From contig QQUJ01000025.1 of NCBI GenBank assembly GCA_008501635.1, forward strand, positions 32,196-96,195: a stretch of DNA of 64,000 bases. Direction: 5' to 3'. Made by a program: the position numbers and the translations under genes. Within the stretch, counting starts at the first letter, position 1; every line of letters begins with the position of its first letter. Below are positions 26,836-42,988 of this stretch, piece after piece. Origin of the DNA: Pseudomonadota bacterium. Its GTDB lineage: Bacteria > Pseudomonadota > Gammaproteobacteria > QQUJ01. The notes beneath the pieces are model-generated. The model saw only the letters and a list, made by a program, of their open reading frames with translations. It was not told where the DNA came from and did not search any database.

Positions 26836-27441
26836 ATGACCGAGAAGCTGACCCCGCGCCAGGCCAGGATCCTGGACTTTATTCGTCAACGTATTGAGGC
26901 TGACGGCCTACCGCCCACCCGCGCGGAGATCGCCACAGCCCTGGGCTTCCGTTCGGTCAATGCCGCCGTCGATCACCTCAAGGCGCTGGCCCGCAAGGGG
27001 GCCATCGAACTGGTCCCCGGCTCCTCGCGCGGCATCCGCCTGCCCCAGGGCCCCGGACTCCCCGTGGTCGGCCGTGTGGCGGCAGGCAGCCCCATCCTTG
27101 CCACCGAGCACATCGAGGATCACTACCGGCTCGATCCCACTCTCTTTCACCCTTCGGCCGACTATCTGCTGCGGGTGCGCGGCATGAGCATGCGCGATGC
27201 GGGTATCCTCGATGGTGATCTGCTGGCCGTGCACCGCACCCCTACCGCCGAGAACGGTCAGATCGTGGTGGCGCGGCTGGAGGACGAGGTCACCGTCAAA
27301 CGCCTGCGCCGTACCCGCAGTCGCGCCTGGCTGCTGCCCGAGAATCCCGATTTCGAACCCATCGAGGTCGATCTGCGCGAGCAGGAACTCAACATCGAGG
27401 GGATCGCCGTCGGTGTACTGCGCGACCATCCGCCCAAATGA
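26836..27441 (+). CDS. lexA: SOS repressor LexA
   Basis: PPTRAEI winged HTH, VAAGSP Ala-Gly cleavage site, GMSM (Ser), VTVKR (Lys). Confidence 0.97.
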
Positions 27442-27467
27442 TCCCGGATCCGGAATGAACCGTTTCC

Positions 27468-27578
27468 GCCGCCCCGCCGCTGGCAGCGTGTCGAACATGG
27501 ACAGCCTCCGACACGCTGCCAATCCCACATCCTCCGCTGCCACCCCTTGGCACTGCGGCGGGGCGGCACCTCTTTTTT
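27468..27578 (+). other. Nested inverted-repeat structure between lexA and imuA ending in a U-tract
   Basis: Outer 13-bp stem 27468-27480/27555-27567, inner 13-bp stem 27481-27493/27509-27521, T6 at 27573-27578. Confidence 0.55.
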
Positions 27579-27594
27579 ACAACGGTACCTAACC

Positions 27595-28242
27595 GTGCTG
27601 GCCGAACTCCTCCAGCGCGCCGACATCTGGCGCGGCAGGCAAACTGCCCCCCGCGCCCAGCGATCGACCGCACCCACCGGCTACGGGACGCTTGATACCC
27701 GTCTGCCCGGTGGCGGCTGGCCGATCGGTGCGCTGACCGAAATCCTCTATCCGCAGGAGGGGATCGGCGAACTGCAGCTCACCCTGCCCACGTTGGCGCG
27801 ACTCAGCCAGGGTGAACGCTGGATCGCCTGGATCAACCCGCCCTTGACCCCCTATGCGCCGGCCCTCGCGGCCCACGGCGTCAATCTGCAACGGCTGCTC
27901 TGGGTGTGCACTCAACGTCCCGAAGAGGGGCTTTGGGCACTGGAACAGGCCTTGCGCTCCGGCATCTGCGCGGCCGTTCTGAGCTGGCCCGCCCGCTGCG
28001 ACGATCGCACCCTGCGCCGCCTGCAGCTGGCGGCCGAGCATGGTCAGGTCCTGGCGTTTCTCTACCGCCCTCTGGAAAACGCACGGAAGGCCTCGCCCGC
28101 CGCCCTGCGCCTGATCCTCCAGAAAACGCCGGAGGGAGGATTGGCGGTGAACTTCGTGAAATGCCGCGGCGCCTGGATCAGCGACACCCTGCACCTGCCC
28201 CGATCCGTCACCGGAGATGCACGCCCATGGAACAGCAGGTAA
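27595..28242 (+). CDS. imuA: Translesion synthesis protein ImuA
   Basis: LLQRADIWRG, PGGGWPIGALTE, WALEQALRSG, LRRLQLAA, SPAALR; GTG start inferred. Confidence 0.92.
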   Translation: MLAELLQRADIWRGRQTAPRAQRSTAPTGYGTLDTRLPGGGWPIGALTEILYPQEGIGELQLTLPTLARLSQGERWIAWINPPLTPYAPALAAHGVNLQRLLWVCTQRPEEGLWALEQALRSGICAAVLSWPARCDDRTLRRLQLAAEHGQVLAFLYRPLENARKASPAALRLILQKTPEGGLAVNFVKCRGAWISDTLHLPRSVTGDARPWNSR

Positions 28243-29813
28243 TCGATCTGCCCCTGCCGCCGGCGGTGAAAGAATCACCGCAGCCAGTGCCGCCGCACGG
28301 TGCACCCCCCGCGATGACGCCAATCCCACGGCCAATCCCTCCCTCTGCGAACCATCAGAAATCCACCCTGACACCGCCAGCGCAGCCGCGCCCAACCCGC
28401 GCCCCGCTGTGGCTTGCCCTCCACTTTCCCCATCTCCCGCTGGAGGTGGTCACCCGCGGTGCGCCGGTAACCGGGCCTTTCGCCGTGATCGAGGGGCAAG
28501 GCACTCAATGCTGTGTTCTGAGCCGCAACCGGGCAGCGGCCGCTACCGGCGTGAAACCGGGGCAGCACCTCAGTGCCGCACAGAGCCTGGCGCCTTTGTT
28601 GAATACCGCCATGCGCCAGGAAGCGGCCGAAGCCGCCGCCTTGGAGCGGTTGGCCGCCTGGGCTTATCAATTCAGCTCCCGCGTCGCCATCGTTGCGCCC
28701 AATGGGCTGTTGCTGGAGATCTCCGGCAGCTTGCGCCTGTTCAAAGGGTTGGAGAACCTGGTGTGCGCTCTGCAGCGGGATCTCACCAACCTGGGCTACC
28801 GCACTCGGCGCAGCATTGCGCCTACCCCACTTGGCGCCTGGCTGCTGGCGCGCAGCGGCGATCGACGCCCCGCGCTGAAGCTGGACGATCTGCGCCGCCA
28901 GCTGGGCGCCCTGCCCCTGCAGATGCTGGAACTCCCGGCCGACACTTTGTCGGCTCTGCGCGAACTCGGTCTGCTACGGGTGCGCGACTGCCTGCGCCTG
29001 CCCCGCGACGGCCTCAATCGTCGCCTCGGTACCGCGGTGCTCGACTACCTGGATCGCGCCCTGGGCCGCAAACCCGACCTGCGCCCTCCGTTCGAAGCTC
29101 GTGAAGGTTTCACCAACCGCCTTGCACTGCCGGCCGAGGTCCACACCACCGAGGGCCTGCATTTCGCGCTGCACCGATTGCTCTTGGAACTGGTCGGTGT
29201 ATTGCGCGCCCGGGATGGCGTCATCCAGCAATTCACGCTGAAGCTTCATCACTTGAAGCGCCCTCCCACGGAGTTGACACTGGGACTATTGGTACCGGGG
29301 CGCGATCTCGTCCATCTGCAGCAGTTGGTCGACAACCGCCTGGAACGGCTCGAACTCCCGGCGCCGGTACTGGAACTCTCCCTGGAGGCAAACGGGATCA
29401 TGCCCTTTCGCGGCGAGCGGCATGACTTCTTTGTCCATACCACGGGGGACCAACTGAACGCGGGCCAGCTTATCGACCGCCTGCGCACCCGCCTCGGTGA
29501 ACAGGCTGTGCGAATGCTCAGCCCCGTTGCCGATCATCGACCCGAGCATGCCTGGCGCAGCGCCGGCAGCACCGTCATCAACACGAGTCACCCAGGCGTT
29601 CGCCCTCTCTGGTTGCTGGAAAAGCCGCAGCTGCTGCCCGGTGCGGACCGCTGGCAACTGCAAGCCGGACCGGAACGCGTCGAAAGCGGCTGGTGGGACG
29701 GTCAGGACCTGGCCCGGGATTATTTCGTGGCGGAACGCAAGGGTGCACGCCTGTGGCTGTTTCGTGAATTGCGTGGCTCGCTGCGCTGGTTTCTGCACGG
29801 GGTATTCGGCTGA
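28227..29813 (+). CDS. imuB: Inactive Y-family polymerase ImuB with Pro-rich N-terminal extension
   Basis: LWLALHFPHLPLE, LLLEISGSLRLF, RPLWLL, GPERVESGWWD, RDYF; overlaps imuA stop. Confidence 0.92.
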   Translation: MEQQVIDLPLPPAVKESPQPVPPHGAPPAMTPIPRPIPPSANHQKSTLTPPAQPRPTRAPLWLALHFPHLPLEVVTRGAPVTGPFAVIEGQGTQCCVLSRNRAAAATGVKPGQHLSAAQSLAPLLNTAMRQEAAEAAALERLAAWAYQFSSRVAIVAPNGLLLEISGSLRLFKGLENLVCALQRDLTNLGYRTRRSIAPTPLGAWLLARSGDRRPALKLDDLRRQLGALPLQMLELPADTLSALRELGLLRVRDCLRLPRDGLNRRLGTAVLDYLDRALGRKPDLRPPFEAREGFTNRLALPAEVHTTEGLHFALHRLLLELVGVLRARDGVIQQFTLKLHHLKRPPTELTLGLLVPGRDLVHLQQLVDNRLERLELPAPVLELSLEANGIMPFRGERHDFFVHTTGDQLNAGQLIDRLRTRLGEQAVRMLSPVADHRPEHAWRSAGSTVINTSHPGVRPLWLLEKPQLLPGADRWQLQAGPERVESGWWDGQDLARDYFVAERKGARLWLFRELRGSLRWFLHGVFG

Positions 29814-39402: not shown

Positions 39403-39418
39403 CTGTACATTTATACAG
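39403..39418. promoter_or_regulatory. LexA (SOS) box upstream of dnaE2
   Basis: CTGT-ACATTTAT-ACAG, perfect CTGT-N8-ACAG 27 bp before the ATG. Confidence 0.9.
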
Positions 39419-39445: not shown

Positions 39446-42400
39446 ATGTCATCGCAGCCCGACTACGCCGAGCTTCATGCGCTCACCAATTTCACCTTTC
39501 TGCGCGGTGCCTCGCATCCCGAGGAGCTGGTGGAACGGGCGGTGGCTGAGGGCTATACCGCCCTGGCGATCACCGACGAATGCACCGTAGCCGGGGTGGT
39601 GCGGGCCCATCTCGCCGCGCGCGGAACACCCTTGAGACTTATCGTCGGCAGCGAATTGCACCTGGCCGATGGGCCGCGTCTGGTGCTGCTGGCGACCAAC
39701 CGCGCCGGCTACGGGGCACTCTGCGCCCTGATCACCCGCGGCCGGCGGGCGACAACGAAAGGCAGCTACCACCTGACCCGCGCCGATGTAGAGGCATTCG
39801 ATCTGGATCGCTGCCTGGCCCTGCTGCTGCCCGCCGAGGAGCCTGCGGTGGAATCCGCCCGCTGGGTGTCCGGGCTGTTTCCCGACCGCGCGTGGCTGGC
39901 GGTGGAGCTGCACCACGGCTGCGACGACGCGGCGCGCCTCGCTCTGTTGCGCGAACTGGGGCGCATGAGCAGTCTGCCCCTGGTGGCAGCGGGCGATGTG
40001 CATATGCACCGCCGCGCCCGCCGCCCGCTGCAGGATGTGCTCACCGCCATACGCCTCAACCGCCCCGTGGCCCAATGCGGCTATGCGCTATTCCCCAACG
40101 CTGAGCGCCACCTGCGCCGCCGTGAGGTGCTGGCGCGGATCTACCCGCCGGAATTGCTGGAAGAGACGCTGCGCATTGCCGCGCGCTGCCAGTTTGTGCT
40201 CGATGAGCTGCGTTACGAATATCCCGACGAATTGGTACCCACAGGCACCACCCCCGCCGTGCATCTGCGCCAGTTGACCGAAGCGGGCCTGCGCCAACGC
40301 TGGCCGCAGGGCGAGTCCGCCAAGGTGCGCCAGCTCATCGAACACGAGCTGGCGCTGATCGGCGAACTGCGCTACGAACCCTACTTTCTCACCGTCCACG
40401 ACATCGTCCGCTTCGCCCGCGCCCGCGGCATCCTCTGCCAGGGGCGCGGTTCGGCGGCCAATTCGGCGGTCTGCTACGCCCTGGGGATCACCGAGGTGGA
40501 CCCCTCGCGCATGGAGATGCTCTTCGAGCGTTTCCTCTCCCGGGAGCGCGACGAACCGCCGGATATCGACGTGGATTTCGAGCACGAACGGCGCGAAGAG
40601 GTGATCCAGTACCTCTACGCCAAATACGGCCGCGAGCGGGCGGCGCTGGCCGCCACCGTCATCACTTATCGGCCCAAGAGCGCGGTGCGCGACGTGGGCA
40701 AGGCGCTGGGGCTGGATGGGGCGCAGATCGAGCGCCTGGCCAAGGCGCTCAAGGGGTGGGTGAGCCGCAAAGAGATCGGCGAGCGCCTCACCGAGGCCGG
40801 GTTCGACCCCGACAACCCGGTGATCGCGCGCCTGCTGTGGCTGGTCAGCGAACTGCTGGGCTTCCCGCGCCATCTCTCCCAGCATGTCGGCGGTTTCGTC
40901 ATCGCCCGGGACTCCTTGCACGAACTGGTGCCCATAGAAAACGCCACCATGCCCGAACGCACGGTGATCCAGTGGGACAAGGATGATCTTGAGGCCCTGG
41001 GCCTGCTCAAGGTCGATGTACTGGGGCTGGGAATGCTGAGCGCCATCCGCAAGGCGCTGGATCTGATCAACGGTTATCGGAGTCGGATGTCCGCTCGTAG
41101 GAGCGACTTCAGTCGCGATGTGCGGCCTGATCCGATCGTGACATTCGCGGTTGAAACCGCTCCTACGAGCACCAGTAACGGGGAAAACCGTGAACGGGAC
41201 TCCGCCCGGACATCAGGGCCGATCAACGGCCATCGGGGTCGAATACCCCCCAGTAGGAGCGACTTCAGTCGCGATGCACACCCCGATCCGACCGCGACGT
41301 TCGCGGTTGAAACTGCTCCTACGGGCACCGGTAGCGGGGAAACCCGCCCGCCGCTCTCCCTGGCCACCATCCCCCCCGAAGACCCGGCCGTCTACGACCT
41401 GATCTGCGCCGGCGACACGGTGGGCGTGTTCCAGATCGAGTCCCGGGCCCAGATGGCCATGCTGCCGCGCCTCAAGCCGCGCACCTTCTACGATCTGGTC
41501 ATCGAAGTGGCCATCGTCCGTCCCGGCCCCATCCAGGGGGACATGGTCCATCCCTACCTGCGCCGCCGTCAGGGTATCGAACCGGTCACCTACCCCAGCG
41601 AGGCGGTACGCGGCGTGCTGGAGCGCACTCTGGGGGTGCCCATCTTCCAGGAACAGGTGATCAAACTGGCGATGGTGGCGGCGGGTTTCTCCGCCGGTGA
41701 GGCCGACGCCCTGCGTCGCGCCATGGCGGCGTGGCGGCGGCGCGGCGGGCTGGAACCCTTCGAGCAGCGACTGATCACCGGCATGCGTCAACGCGGCTAC
41801 TCCGAGACCTTCGCCCGTCAGATCTACCAGCAGATCTGCGGCTTCGGCGAGTACGGCTTCCCCGAAAGCCACGCCGCCAGCTTTGCGCTGCTCGCCTACG
41901 CCTCGGCCTGGCTCAAGCGTCACGAACCCGCCGCCTTCTGTGCGGCCCTGATCAACAGCCTGCCCATGGGTTTCTACGCCCCCGCGCAGCTGGTGCAGGA
42001 CGCTCAGCGCCACGGGGTCGAGGTGCGGACCGTGGATGTGCGTCACAGCAATTGGGATTGCACGCTGGAGCCTCCTGGGGCCCCTATCTCGCGTCAGGAC
42101 ACCAGGGTGCCAGGAACGCGGAAAACGCTGGCATCAGCACCTGTTTTTGCCCCACGAGACGACAACGGGCAGAGCATTCTGACGACCGTTCCCCCTCACC
42201 CCAGCCCTCTCCCCAGGGAGAGGGAGCCCAACTGCATCCCCAGTACCCTCTCCCCCCGGGAGAGGGTCAGGGTGAGGGCCCAACCCACCCTGCGCCTCGG
42301 CCTGCGGCAGGTAAAGGGCCTTTCGCGCGAAGGCGCGGAGCGCCTTGTCGCCGTACGGGCCGAACAACCCTTCGCCGATGTGGCCGATCTGGTCCGCCGC

Positions 42401-42988
42401 GCTCGCCTCGACAAGCGGGACCGCAATGCCCTCGCGGCGGCCGGGGCACTGGCGGGACTGGCCGGTAACCGCCACCAGGCGCGCTGGCAGACGCTGGGCA
42501 TTGAGGCGGCGACACCCCTTGGGGTGGAGAACACCATCGCTGAAGCCACCCCCATGCTGGCACCCCCTAGCGAAGGTGCAGCGATTGCGGCGGACTACCG
42601 CAGCCTGGGACTCACACTGGAGCGCCACCCCTTGGCGCTGTTGCGTGAGCAACTAACCACACAGCATCTCGTCACCGCCGAGGCAATCAATACTTTGCCC
42701 CACGGCCGCCGGGCGCGCATGGCAGGCCTGGTGGTCACCCGGCAACGACCCGGCACCGCCAGCGGCGTGGTCTTCGTCACCCTGGAGGATGAGACCGGTG
42801 TGGTGAATGTGGTGGTGTGGGGGCAGCTGGCCGAGCGCCACCGCCGTGTGCTGCTGGAATCGCAGCTACTGGCAGTGAGCGGTGAGGTGCAGACCGAAGA
42901 TGGCGTCACGCACCTCATCGCCCACCGTTTGGAGAACTACAACCCGCTACTGGGCGGCCTGGAAACCCGATCGCGGGATTTCCACTGA
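39446..42988 (+). CDS. dnaE2: Error-prone DNA polymerase DnaE2 (ImuC) with two large in-frame repeat-derived insertions
   Basis: PHP domain, [36 protein letters not shown] fold, C-terminal SRDFH. Confidence 0.96.
41097..41166. repeat. GTAG-family REP doublet (REPIN) 1 inside dnaE2
   Basis: GTAGGAGCGACTTCAGTCGCGA (41097-41118) inverted to TCGCGGTTGAAACCGCTCCTAC (41145-41166). Confidence 0.88.
41253..41322. repeat. GTAG-family REP doublet (REPIN) 2 inside dnaE2
   Basis: GTAGGAGCGACTTCAGTCGCGA (41253-41274) and TCGCGGTTGAAACTGCTCCTAC (41301-41322), 156 bp after copy 1. Confidence 0.88.
42193..42278. repeat. CCCTCTCCC/GGGAGAGGG palindromic doublet inside dnaE2
   Basis: CCCTCACCCCAGCCCTCTCCC-CA-GGGAGAGGG ... 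CCCTCTCCC-CCC-GGGAGAGGGTCAGGGTGAGGG. Confidence 0.85.

What the first reader, a model, noticed from the sequence alone, without database searches (positions are those of the whole stretch)
41065..41346. Two tandem REPINs read through in frame inside the DnaE2 polymerase
Seen: a 156-bp-period (52-codon) duplication, each unit with a 70-bp GTAG REP doublet. The two arms show compensatory stems (GCGAC-TTCA-GTCGC vs GCGGT-TTCA-ACCGC). About 95 aa now separate ALDLI from LSLATIP, with no stop or frameshift. Established: GTAG REPs are RAYT-mobilised and nearly always extragenic; this position matches a variable loop after the KxDxLG motif of C-family polymerases. Inference: REP elements domesticated as coding sequence in an SOS mutator polymerase, possibly also folding the mRNA and modulating its translation.
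Basis: partly seen in the sequence, partly recalled or inferred. Interest (0 to 1): 0.78.

Follow-up and report, generated by a model that had tools for sequence, protein, structure and literature searches.

The report
REP repeats read through inside DnaE2
A small mobile palindromic DNA repeat (a REP doublet) has landed in frame inside the SOS-controlled error-prone polymerase gene dnaE2 and was then duplicated, adding a floppy 88-residue loop; this is real, but REP-decorated DnaE2 genes were already described in 2013.

Summary
Window 41066-41377 contains two 156-nt in-frame units. Each carries a 70-nt inverted GTAG REP doublet inside the 1180-aa dnaE2 ORF (39446-42988). The REPs belong to a genome-wide family (69 strict copies, 29 doublets) whose RAYT transposase gene is flanked by the same variants. 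All orthologues tested, including a same-genus genome, have an empty site. The net gain is 264 nt (88 codons).

One 108-nt REPIN-bearing insertion came first. A tandem duplication followed, and it also copied 18 nt of host codons (INGYRS/INGHRG). These were not two transpositions.

Six allelic variants on about 19 independently assembled contigs keep both inserts. Within-species pN/pS is 0.14, so neither misassembly nor a pseudogene fits. AlphaFold2 predicts the insert as a disordered loop.

A second palindromic family sits in frame in a second loop (42193-42278). Relatives carry other mobile palindromes at the same two loops.

The "domesticated" or translation-modulating reading has no support. 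The most likely reading is a tolerated passenger in a permissive loop. Di Nocera et al. 2013 already listed DnaE2 among REP-tagged proteins, so this is a new member of a known kind. One point is unexplained: REP cores are far better conserved than the rest of the insert.

The parts
39403..39418 (+). LexA (SOS) box CTGTACATTTATACAG, 28 nt upstream of the dnaE2 ATG
   Evidence: It is the only CTGT-N8-ACAG match in the window (sequence). That it binds LexA is inferred from the gammaproteobacterial consensus.
39446..42988 (+). dnaE2 (error-prone Pol III alpha homologue), 1180 aa, intact
   Evidence: ORF. Pfam finds PHP, DNA_pol3_alpha, finger, HHH_6 and OB domains. NCBIfam NF004225 scores 1479 bits against a 939 cutoff. 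The AF2 model matches Pol III alpha structures (2hpi E 3.7e-56). The catalytic Asp residues D373, D375 and D524 are invariant in alignment A1.
41066..41221 (+). Repeat unit 1 (52 codons). It comprises host head 41066-41083 (INGYRS), insert copy 1 at 41084-41191 (108 nt) and a 30-nt joint at 41192-41221.
   Evidence: The unit is 72% identical to unit 2 over 156 nt and 83% over the first 126 nt.
41222..41377 (+). Repeat unit 2 (52 codons). It comprises a duplicated host head 41222-41239 (INGHRG), insert copy 2 at 41240-41347 (108 nt) and host tail 41348-41377 ([10 protein letters not shown]).
   Evidence: The head matches unit 1 at 15 of 18 nt and resembles the orthologues' NGFRG/QHRG.
41084..41347 (+). 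Net extra sequence relative to orthologues: 264 nt, 88 codons
   Evidence: This stretch is absent from same-genus G001 and from every DnaE2 orthologue aligned. AF2 gives pLDDT below 50 for residues 559-631.
41097..41166 (+). REPIN 1: left REP 41097-41118 (GTAGGAGCGACTTCAGTCGCGA), 26-nt spacer, right REP 41145-41166 (inverted GTAGGAGCGGTTTCAACCGCGA)
   Evidence: Its architecture matches the 29 genomic REP doublets. The closest spacer is that of C6:82465.
41253..41322 (+). REPIN 2: left REP 41253-41274, right REP 41301-41322 (one C-to-T change in the stem)
41175..41191 (+). Third, degenerate GTA-hairpin in the 3' flank of the insert (GTAACGGGGAAAACCGT). Its counterpart in unit 2 lies at 41331-41347 (GTAGCGGGGAAACCCGC).
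   Evidence: Read from the sequence. There is one G-C to A-T double change between the copies, and one pair is lost.
42071..42280 (+). Second in-frame insert (about 65 codons) in the loop between CTLE and LRLGL. Boundaries are approximate.
   Evidence: GFYAP to LRLGL spans 102 aa here, against a mode of 37. AF2 gives pLDDT below 50 for residues 883-943. An orthologous but decaying copy sits in L110/P0012.
42193..42278 (+). 86-nt inverted doublet of a second dispersed palindrome family: CCCTCACCC-CAG-CCCTCTCCCCAGGGAGAGGG ... CCCTCTCCCCCCGGGAGAGGG-TCA-GGGTGAGGG
   Evidence: About 10 copies of the 33-nt unit occur in the genome.
26836..27441 (+). lexA (context)
   Evidence: TIGR00498, 232 bits.
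27547..28242 (+). imuA (context; the mutasome partner genes lie 10 kb upstream, not adjacent to dnaE2)
   Evidence: NF033429, 228 bits.
28240..29813 (+). imuB-like Y-family gene (context; start uncertain)
   Evidence: A PF00817 hit at C2:60668-61045 corresponds to window 28473-28850, in the frame of ORF 27906..29813. No NCBIfam hit was found.

Best explanation
A 108-nt segment carrying one 70-nt REPIN, plus a third degenerate hairpin, inserted in frame into dnaE2. The REPIN is an inverted doublet of the genome's RAYT-associated GTAGGAGCG / TTCA-loop REP family. The insertion site is the loop just after helix ...ALDLINGYR, between E. coli Pol III alpha K578 and E581 and about 20 residues past the third catalytic Asp.

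Later an in-frame tandem duplication with a 156-nt period copied the insert together with 18 nt of upstream host codons. Together the two steps give 88 extra residues.

The extra residues form a disordered surface loop that the polymerase tolerates. The gene is still SOS-boxed, intact and under purifying selection. The most likely reading is therefore a near-neutral passenger that survived because it landed in one of the two permissive loops of DnaE2, not a domesticated module.

Shown: the identity of the repeat, the empty sites, the duplication, the reproducibility of the assembly and the purifying selection. Inferred: RAYT-mediated mobilisation, the order and timing of events, neutrality, LexA control, and that the insert is translated.
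For: - REP family: 69 strict copies against 0 for the control, 110 profile hits and 29 head-to-head doublets with the same architecture.
- RAYT: the gene at C7:586472-586951 scores 149.9 bits against NF047646 and is flanked by arrays of GGTTTCAACC and GAATTCATTC REPs.
- Empty site: seen in same-genus G001 (86% aa identity) and in all other orthologues. The KxDxLG-to-GVFQIES distance is 44 aa in 48 of 82 DnaE2s and 132 aa here.
- Duplication: the repeat starts in host codons (ATCAACGGTTATCGG / ATCAACGGCCATCGG, 15 of 18 nt). The non-REP 3' flank is 20 of 25 identical between the copies, yet is absent from other genomic REPINs.
- Assembly and selection: six 1180-aa alleles occur on about 19 contigs. 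L109, from another run, differs at 25 of 3543 nt and has both inserts at the same length. pN/pS is 0.14 within the species, and dN/dS against G001 is 0.16.
- Structure: AF2 gives pLDDT below 50 with no secondary structure for residues 559-631 and 883-943, with confident flanks. The insert maps between E. coli alpha residues 578 and 581.
- Recurrence at the same two loops in other lineages: L106, L071 and L078, L111.
- Prior report of REP-tagged DnaE2: PMC3733652.
Against: - The 30-nt joint between the copies (41192-41221) matches the host tail at only 10 of 30 positions, or 13 of 22 with a 1-nt shift. A clean 156-nt duplication therefore needs later indels or rapid drift.
- REP cores differ at 1 of 44 positions between the copies, while the rest of the insert differs at 19 of 64 (p = 2.4e-4). 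Pure neutral decay does not predict this. Some force keeps the REPs intact, whether gene conversion, RAYT or structural constraint, or selection.
- Neutrality is inferred, not measured.
Confidence: 0.75

Rival explanations
1. The insert is functional (exapted). In this reading the REPIN hairpins in the mRNA slow translation or alter the stability of the dnaE2 message. Alternatively, the extra loop changes mutasome activity or partner binding, so that the insertions tune SOS mutagenesis. Di Nocera et al. raised this last speculation.
For: - The RNA fold of 41060-41380 has an MFE of -145.5 kcal/mol, against -120.6 +/- 5.3 for shuffles (z -4.7).
- REP cores are conserved far more than the rest of the insert (1/44 against 19/64).
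- There is one G-C to A-T double change in the third hairpin.
- dnaE2 is the only recognisable protein in this genome with internal REPs. The published pattern says repair genes are often the only REP-tagged CDS.
- Both inserts are fixed in all six alleles.
Against: - Any REPIN folds strongly, so the z-score is not specific to this locus.
- The encoded peptide is predicted disordered.
- Outside the REP cores the two copies have diverged by 30%, with dN/dS of about 0.56.
- The same-genus relative and most DnaE2s work without the insert.
- Different lineages carry unrelated elements at the same loops. This fits tolerance better than a shared function.
- REP-core conservation can come from gene conversion by about 100 genomic copies.
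Confidence: 0.15
2. The two REPINs are independent RAYT-mediated insertions into neighbouring or pre-duplicated target sites, not a segmental duplication. In this reading the junction after LINGYR is a true insertion target.
For: - A relative at 82% identity (P0003/L106) carries three REPs of a different GTAG family at exactly the same junction after LINGYR.
- The spacer of REPIN 2 is as similar to the extragenic REPIN at C6:82465 (18 of 26, my count) as it is to REPIN 1 (18 of 26).
- REP cores are nearly identical to the genomic master copies.
Against: - The repeat includes 18 nt of host codons and 25 nt of non-REP 3' flank that other genomic REPINs lack.
- The period is exactly 52 codons.
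- A bare 70-nt REPIN would shift the frame.
Confidence: 0.07
3. The feature is an assembly artefact, or dnaE2 is a decaying pseudogene whose open frame is accidental.
For: - Repeats are prone to assembly error.
- The genome is a 30-contig draft.
- Read-level checks could not be run.
Against: - The same 1180-aa architecture appears in six alleles on about 19 contigs from independent assemblies. L109 carries 25 SNPs and has identical insert lengths.
- The two units are only 72-83% identical, so they cannot be collapsed or expanded by an assembler.
- pN/pS is 0.14 after the insertion.
- My own estimate of the chance that two random inserts of 88 and about 65 codons both stay in frame and free of stops is about 0.1%.
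Confidence: 0.02

Closest known systems
REP-tagged (intragenic GTAG/CGTC REP) proteins, including DnaE2, of Di Nocera, De Gregorio and Rocco 2013 (PMC3733652)
   Same: - GTAG REP dimers lie entirely within ORFs and are read in frame.
- DNA replication and repair genes, explicitly including error-prone DnaE2, are over-represented. They are often the only REP-tagged CDS of a species, as is the case here.
- Listed examples are Oter_4053 dnaE2 residues 934-971 and Swit_1119 dnaE2 residues 166-246.
   Different: - This REP family and its peptides (RSDFSRD / FAVETAPT) are not in their table.
- The insert here was enlarged by a tandem duplication that includes host codons.
- A second, unrelated palindrome family occupies a second loop of the same gene.
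- A relative carries another REP family at the identical junction.
Rickettsia palindromic elements (RPEs; Ogata et al. 2002, Claverie and Ogata 2003), as cited in PMC3733652 and PMC10969869
   Same: Palindromic mobile repeats inserted in frame in functional protein genes, at sites compatible with the protein fold.
   Different: RPEs are longer (about 150 bp), belong to other families and occur in reduced intracellular genomes, with dozens of target genes. Here a single gene is hit in a free-living-sized 3.9-Mb genome.
REPIN-RAYT systems (Bertels and Rainey 2011, PMC3116915)
   Same: Inverted REP doublets of about 70 nt. The RAYT gene is flanked by REPs of its own family. Stem variants keep the hairpin.
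   Different: REPINs are described as essentially extragenic. This copy is inside a CDS and translated in frame, though translation itself is inferred.
imuA-imuB-dnaE2 SOS mutagenesis cassette
   Same: The genome has a DnaE2-type polymerase with a LexA box, and lexA-imuA-imuB lie in the same window.
   Different: dnaE2 lies about 10 kb from imuA-imuB, behind a FAD-linked oxidase gene, and has its own SOS box. It carries two loop insertions.

Membership tests
GTAG REP / REPIN (RAYT-associated repetitive extragenic palindrome doublet) | Short palindrome (hairpin) with a conserved GTAG head, present in many copies in the genome | tested here: met
   GTAGGAGCG-N8-CGCGA occurs 69 times, against 0 for the reversed control. 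Stems are 5 bp with 4-nt loops. The profile gives 110 hits.
GTAG REP / REPIN (RAYT-associated repetitive extragenic palindrome doublet) | Two REPs in inverted orientation at a short, fixed distance (the REPIN unit) | tested here: met
   The arms are 26 nt, 85% and 76% complementary, and 26 nt apart. The layout is the same as in 29 genomic doublets.
GTAG REP / REPIN (RAYT-associated repetitive extragenic palindrome doublet) | A cognate RAYT gene flanked by REPs of the same family | tested here: met
   C7:586472-586951 scores 149.9 bits against NF047646 (cutoff 80). It is flanked by GCGGC/GCGGT/GCGAA TTCA-loop REPs.
GTAG REP / REPIN (RAYT-associated repetitive extragenic palindrome doublet) | Extragenic location | tested here: not met
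   The doublets lie inside the dnaE2 ORF in frame. This is the exception of interest, and published exceptions exist.
GTAG REP / REPIN (RAYT-associated repetitive extragenic palindrome doublet) | Mobilisation by the RAYT | not testable with these tools
   Only the outcome is seen: an empty site in orthologues.
DnaE2 (error-prone C-family DNA polymerase) | Pol III alpha domain set and the DnaE2-specific profile | tested here: met
   Pfam finds PHP, DNA_pol3_alpha, finger, HHH_6 and OB domains. NF004225 scores 1479 bits against a 939 cutoff, while the DnaE1 model NF004226 scores 580, below its 1002 cutoff. A separate DnaE1-like gene lies at C23:104329.
DnaE2 (error-prone C-family DNA polymerase) | Intact catalytic aspartates | tested here: met
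   D373, D375 and D524 are invariant columns in the 63-sequence alignment. D524 aligns to the LVKFDFLGL motif of E. coli alpha. The numbering of the E. coli triad comes from my own knowledge.
DnaE2 (error-prone C-family DNA polymerase) | SOS regulation and ImuA/ImuB partners | tested here: met
   A CTGT-N8-ACAG box lies 28 nt upstream. lexA, imuA and an imuB-like gene are in the window. Binding and induction were not tested.
DnaE2 (error-prone C-family DNA polymerase) | Mutagenic translesion activity | not testable with these tools
   This needs UV or mitomycin mutagenesis assays.
Intein (considered for the insert) | Hint/LAGLIDADG domains and splice-junction residues | tested here: not met
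   Pfam finds no intein family in P0001. The insert is a repeat-derived, disordered sequence. Some other DnaE2s do carry PF14890.

The most novel reading that the evidence does not exclude
The two DnaE2 loops are not merely permissive. They may be preferred landing sites for ssDNA-transposing palindromic elements, and the intragenic REPs may stay 'alive'. In that reading their cores are kept intact by RAYT interaction, gene conversion or RNA-structure selection. REP/REPIN populations and the SOS mutasome would then be functionally coupled, for example through REP hairpins or loop peptides tuning DnaE2 output under stress. The supporting observations are as follows:
- Unrelated REP families sit at the identical codon junction in two related species.
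- One 270-nt element occupies both loops of one gene.
- REP-core conservation is 1/44, against 19/64 for the rest of the insert.
Probability: 0.12. Interest if true: 0.7.

Novelty: new member of a known kind. Interest (0 to 1): 0.4.

Why it matters
This is a clean, datable example of how a bacterial protein gains length from a mobile palindrome: an insertion into a permissive loop followed by in-frame tandem duplication. It adds to published evidence that DNA-repair polymerases, and DnaE2 in particular, are repeatedly decorated by REP-type elements.

The new points are as follows:
- The same two loops are hit by different element families in different lineages.
- REP cores inside the coding sequence stay nearly unchanged while the rest of the insert drifts.

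If that conservation reflects RAYT activity or RNA structure rather than gene conversion, it would bear on what REPINs do for their hosts. For annotation, it warns that such inserts are real and not assembly errors.

Tried and rejected
- Tandem Repeats Finder did not report the 156-nt repeat. The repeat finder did.
- I asked whether other genes in this genome carry in-frame REPs. Of the 110 REP hits, 27 lie in open frames with at least 60 codons on each side. The 10 non-dnaE2 frames have no Pfam family and look like shadow ORFs rich in R, G and A. I rejected them, with the caveat that a missing Pfam hit is not proof.
- My first REP pattern used N9 and found 0 copies in the window's own genome. 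With N8 it found 69.
- I tested whether DnaE2 loop inserts are generally palindromic. For 23 inserts against 230 control windows, the mean longest perfect inverted-repeat arm was 7.5 against 7.1 nt (p = 0.20). The generalisation is not supported. Only a subset of inserts is recognisably element-derived.
Independent Logan/JGI assemblies served as a substitute.
- The genome of L106 is not held, so the copy number of its REP family could not be counted.
- MAFFT global alignment placed the gap badly. I redid it with a free-end-gap pairwise aligner.
- An intein, a misassembly and a pseudogene were all considered and rejected (see rivals and membership test).
- The organism's name was withheld by the tools, and the genome-contig scan left out its own record.
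Full report
**1. What is in the sequence**

Window 39446-42988 (+) is one uninterrupted 1180-codon ORF.
- Pfam finds PHP, DNA_pol3_alpha (273-527), finger (636-784), HHH_6 and OB domains.
- NCBIfam places it in NF004225, error-prone DNA polymerase, at 1479 bits (cutoff 939). The replicative DnaE model falls below its cutoff.
- A separate DnaE1-like gene lies elsewhere in the genome, at C23.
- The Pfam palm and finger hits are separated by about 110 residues. That gap is where the finding sits.

The repeat finder reports a direct repeat of 126 nt (41065-41190 and 41221-41346) at 83% identity with a 156-nt period. Each copy contains an inverted pair with 26-nt arms 26 nt apart. In codon register the units are 41066-41221 and 41222-41377.
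- Unit 1 reads [52 protein letters not shown].
- Unit 2 reads [52 protein letters not shown].

**2. The repeat is a genuine REP family with its RAYT**

The genome is a 3.93-Mb draft in 30 contigs, and the window is C2:32196-96195.
- The strict pattern GTAGGAGCG-N8-CGCGA occurs 69 times, against 0 for the reversed control.
- A profile built from these copies finds 110 hits.
- The hairpins fall into a few stem-loop variants: GCGGC-GGAA-GCCGC (25), GCGGC-TTCA-GCCGC (19), GCGGT-TTCA-ACCGC (9), GCGAC-TTCA-GTCGC (8), GCGGC-GGCA-GCCGC (8) and GCGAA-TTCA-TTCGC (6).

29 head-to-head doublets share the REPIN architecture of the dnaE2 copies. Some have related spacers, for example C6:82465.

Five Y1-transposase hits exist in the genome. 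The one at C7:586472-586951 scores 149.9 bits against NF047646, REP-associated tyrosine transposase. It is flanked on both sides by TTCA-loop REPs, including the GGTTTCAACC variant that forms the right arm in dnaE2.

The same-genus genome G001 has only GGAA/GAAA-loop and 5-nt-loop relatives of the family. The other genus of the family, G002, has TTCA-loop copies.

**3. Empty sites and the size of the insertion**

DnaE2 orthologues from G001 (86% aa identity) and from seven other relatives align to residues 1-546 and 635-876, with 0-3 nt between the blocks. The protein and DNA alignments show ...LINGYRG-xPLSLATIP... without the insert.

In 82 DnaE2 sequences the distance from KxDxLG to GVFQIES is 44 aa in 48 cases and 132 aa here. 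The net gain is 264 nt (41084-41347).

**4. How it arose**

The repeat begins in host codons. ATCAACGGTTATCGGAGT and ATCAACGGCCATCGGGGT agree at 15 of 18 nt, and the second copy (INGHRG) resembles the orthologues' NGFRG. Downstream of the REPIN, the repeat includes 25 nt of non-REP flank that is 20 of 25 identical between the units and absent from other genomic REPINs.

A bare 70-nt REPIN would shift the frame. Each unit instead contains a 108-nt (36-codon) insert. The simplest history is one 108-nt insertion followed by an in-frame 156-nt tandem duplication.

The weak point is the 30-nt joint at 41192-41221. It matches the host tail at only 10 of 30 positions, or 13 of 22 with a 1-nt shift, so later indels or rapid drift must be assumed.

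The two units have pS 0.37, close to the pS of 0.40 between this dnaE2 and that of G001. The duplication is therefore old, dating from roughly soon after the split from G001. This dating is an inference.

**5. Not an artefact and not a pseudogene**

The 90%-identity cluster of this protein has six distinct 1180-aa variants on about 19 contigs from independent assemblies.

L109, from another sequencing run, differs at 25 of 3543 nt. It keeps both inserts at the same length, with 0 differences in insert 1 and 1 in insert 2. Of the 25 differences, 18 are synonymous, giving pN/pS of 0.14. Selection has therefore acted on the insert-bearing allele. Against G001, dN/dS is 0.16.

**6. Where it sits in the protein**

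The AF2 model was built from 63 sequences and has mean pLDDT 78.5 and pTM 0.76. It matches Pol III alpha structures (2hpi E 3.7e-56; TM up to 0.82 normalised to 2hnh).

Residues 559-631 and 883-943 have pLDDT below 50 and no secondary structure, while their flanks are confident. By sequence the insert falls between E. coli alpha K578 and E581, about 20 residues after the KxDxLG aspartate. The aspartates D373, D375 and D524 are invariant.

**7. Regulation and context**

A perfect CTGTACATTTATACAG box lies 28 nt upstream of the ATG and is the only such match in the window. lexA (26836-27441), imuA (27547-28242) and an imuB-like gene lie 10 kb upstream. The gene directly upstream of dnaE2 is a FAD-linked oxidase.

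**8. A second insert, and recurrence elsewhere**

Residues about 876-945 form a second insert: GFYAP to LRLGL spans 102 aa, against a mode of 37. It contains an 86-nt inverted doublet (42193-42278) of a different palindrome, CCCTCTCCC-N-GGGAGAGGG-N-GGGTGAGGG, which has about 10 copies in the genome. A relative (P0012/L110) has an orthologous, partly decayed copy but lacks insert 1, so insert 2 appears to be the older.

Other lineages show similar events:
- P0003/L106 (82% identity) carries three REPs of another GTAG family (GTAGGWTGGGTCAAG) at exactly the junction after LINGYR.
- L071 has a GTAG REPIN with 25-nt arms in loop 2.
- L078 has 20-nt inverted arms in loop 2.
- L111 has one 270-nt TIR element, 90.4% identical between copies, in both loops.
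- Many relatives show SPSPLGEG-type or LDPGLRRDD...PAKAGAQ-type peptides at loop 1.

A general test did not reach significance. For 23 inserts against 230 control windows, p was 0.20. Only a subset of loop inserts is recognisably element-derived.

**9. Function**

The RNA of 41060-41380 folds at -145.5 kcal/mol (z -4.7), but that is expected of any REPIN.

Outside the REP cores the two copies have drifted, differing at 19 of 64 positions. The unit-to-unit dN/dS is about 0.56. Together with the predicted disorder and the many insert-free orthologues, this favours a tolerated passenger.

One observation does not fit simple neutrality. The four REP cores differ at only 1 of 44 positions (Fisher p = 2.4e-4). 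Gene conversion from the roughly 100 genomic copies is the simplest explanation. Constraint from RAYT binding or RNA structure cannot be excluded.

**10. Comparison with what is known**

Di Nocera et al. 2013 (PMC3733652) catalogued intragenic GTAG and CGTC REPs. They noted an excess in replication and repair genes and stated that REP-tagged proteins include the error-prone polymerases encoded by DnaE2 genes. They also noted that such genes are often the only REP-tagged CDS in a species. Their table lists Oter_4053 (residues 934-971) and Swit_1119 (residues 166-246).

Rickettsia RPEs are the classic case of in-frame palindromes. The peptides found here are not in the 2013 table.

This is therefore a new member of a known kind. 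The added details are the duplication, the presence of two families in one gene, recurrence at the same junction, and REP-core conservation.

**Verdict**

I score interest at 0.4.

Noticed in passing
window 42071-42280 (doublet 42193-42278): A second, unrelated palindromic family (CCCTCTCCC..GGGAGAGGG..GGGTGAGGG, about 10 genomic copies) is also inserted in frame in dnaE2, in the loop between CTLE and LRLGL. An orthologous but decaying copy exists in L110 (P0012), which lacks the REPIN insert.
   Followed up: partly
L106:5624-5848 (P0003, MAG Gammaproteobacteria, GCA_054681815.1): A related dnaE2 (82% aa identity) carries three REPs of a different GTAG family (GTAGGWTGGGTCAAG) in frame, at exactly the same junction after LINGYR.
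   Followed up: partly
L111:3154-3422 and L111:4183-4451 (P0030): One 270-nt element sits in frame in both variable loops of a single dnaE2 gene, and the two copies are 90.4% identical. It has terminal inverted repeats (GGGGACGCAGAGTTCGCAGAGG / CCTCTGCGAACTCTGCGTCCC) and an internal GTAG hairpin.
   Followed up: partly
L071:2323-2393: An independent GTAG REPIN lies in frame in loop 2 of another DnaE2, from a Pseudomonadota MAG. Its arms are GTAGGGGCGGCTCGCGAGCCGCCCT and its inverse, 25 nt long and 21 nt apart.
   Followed up: no
G001:C119:94164-94185: In the same-genus genome a REP (GTAGGAGCGGAGGGAACCGCGA) sits about 130 nt upstream of the insert-free dnaE2 start.
   Followed up: no
window 39403-39418 and 26836-29813: dnaE2 has its own perfect SOS box and is separated by about 10 kb from lexA-imuA-imuB. 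This differs from the usual contiguous imuA-imuB-dnaE2 cassette.
   Followed up: partly
G000 C7:586340-587248 and C14:284807-285572: There are two REPtron-like loci. One RAYT is flanked by TTCA-loop REP arrays. A second Y1-transposase hit (C14:285012-285233) is flanked by GGCA/GGAA-loop REPs. This suggests two RAYT-REP subsystems in one genome.
   Followed up: partly
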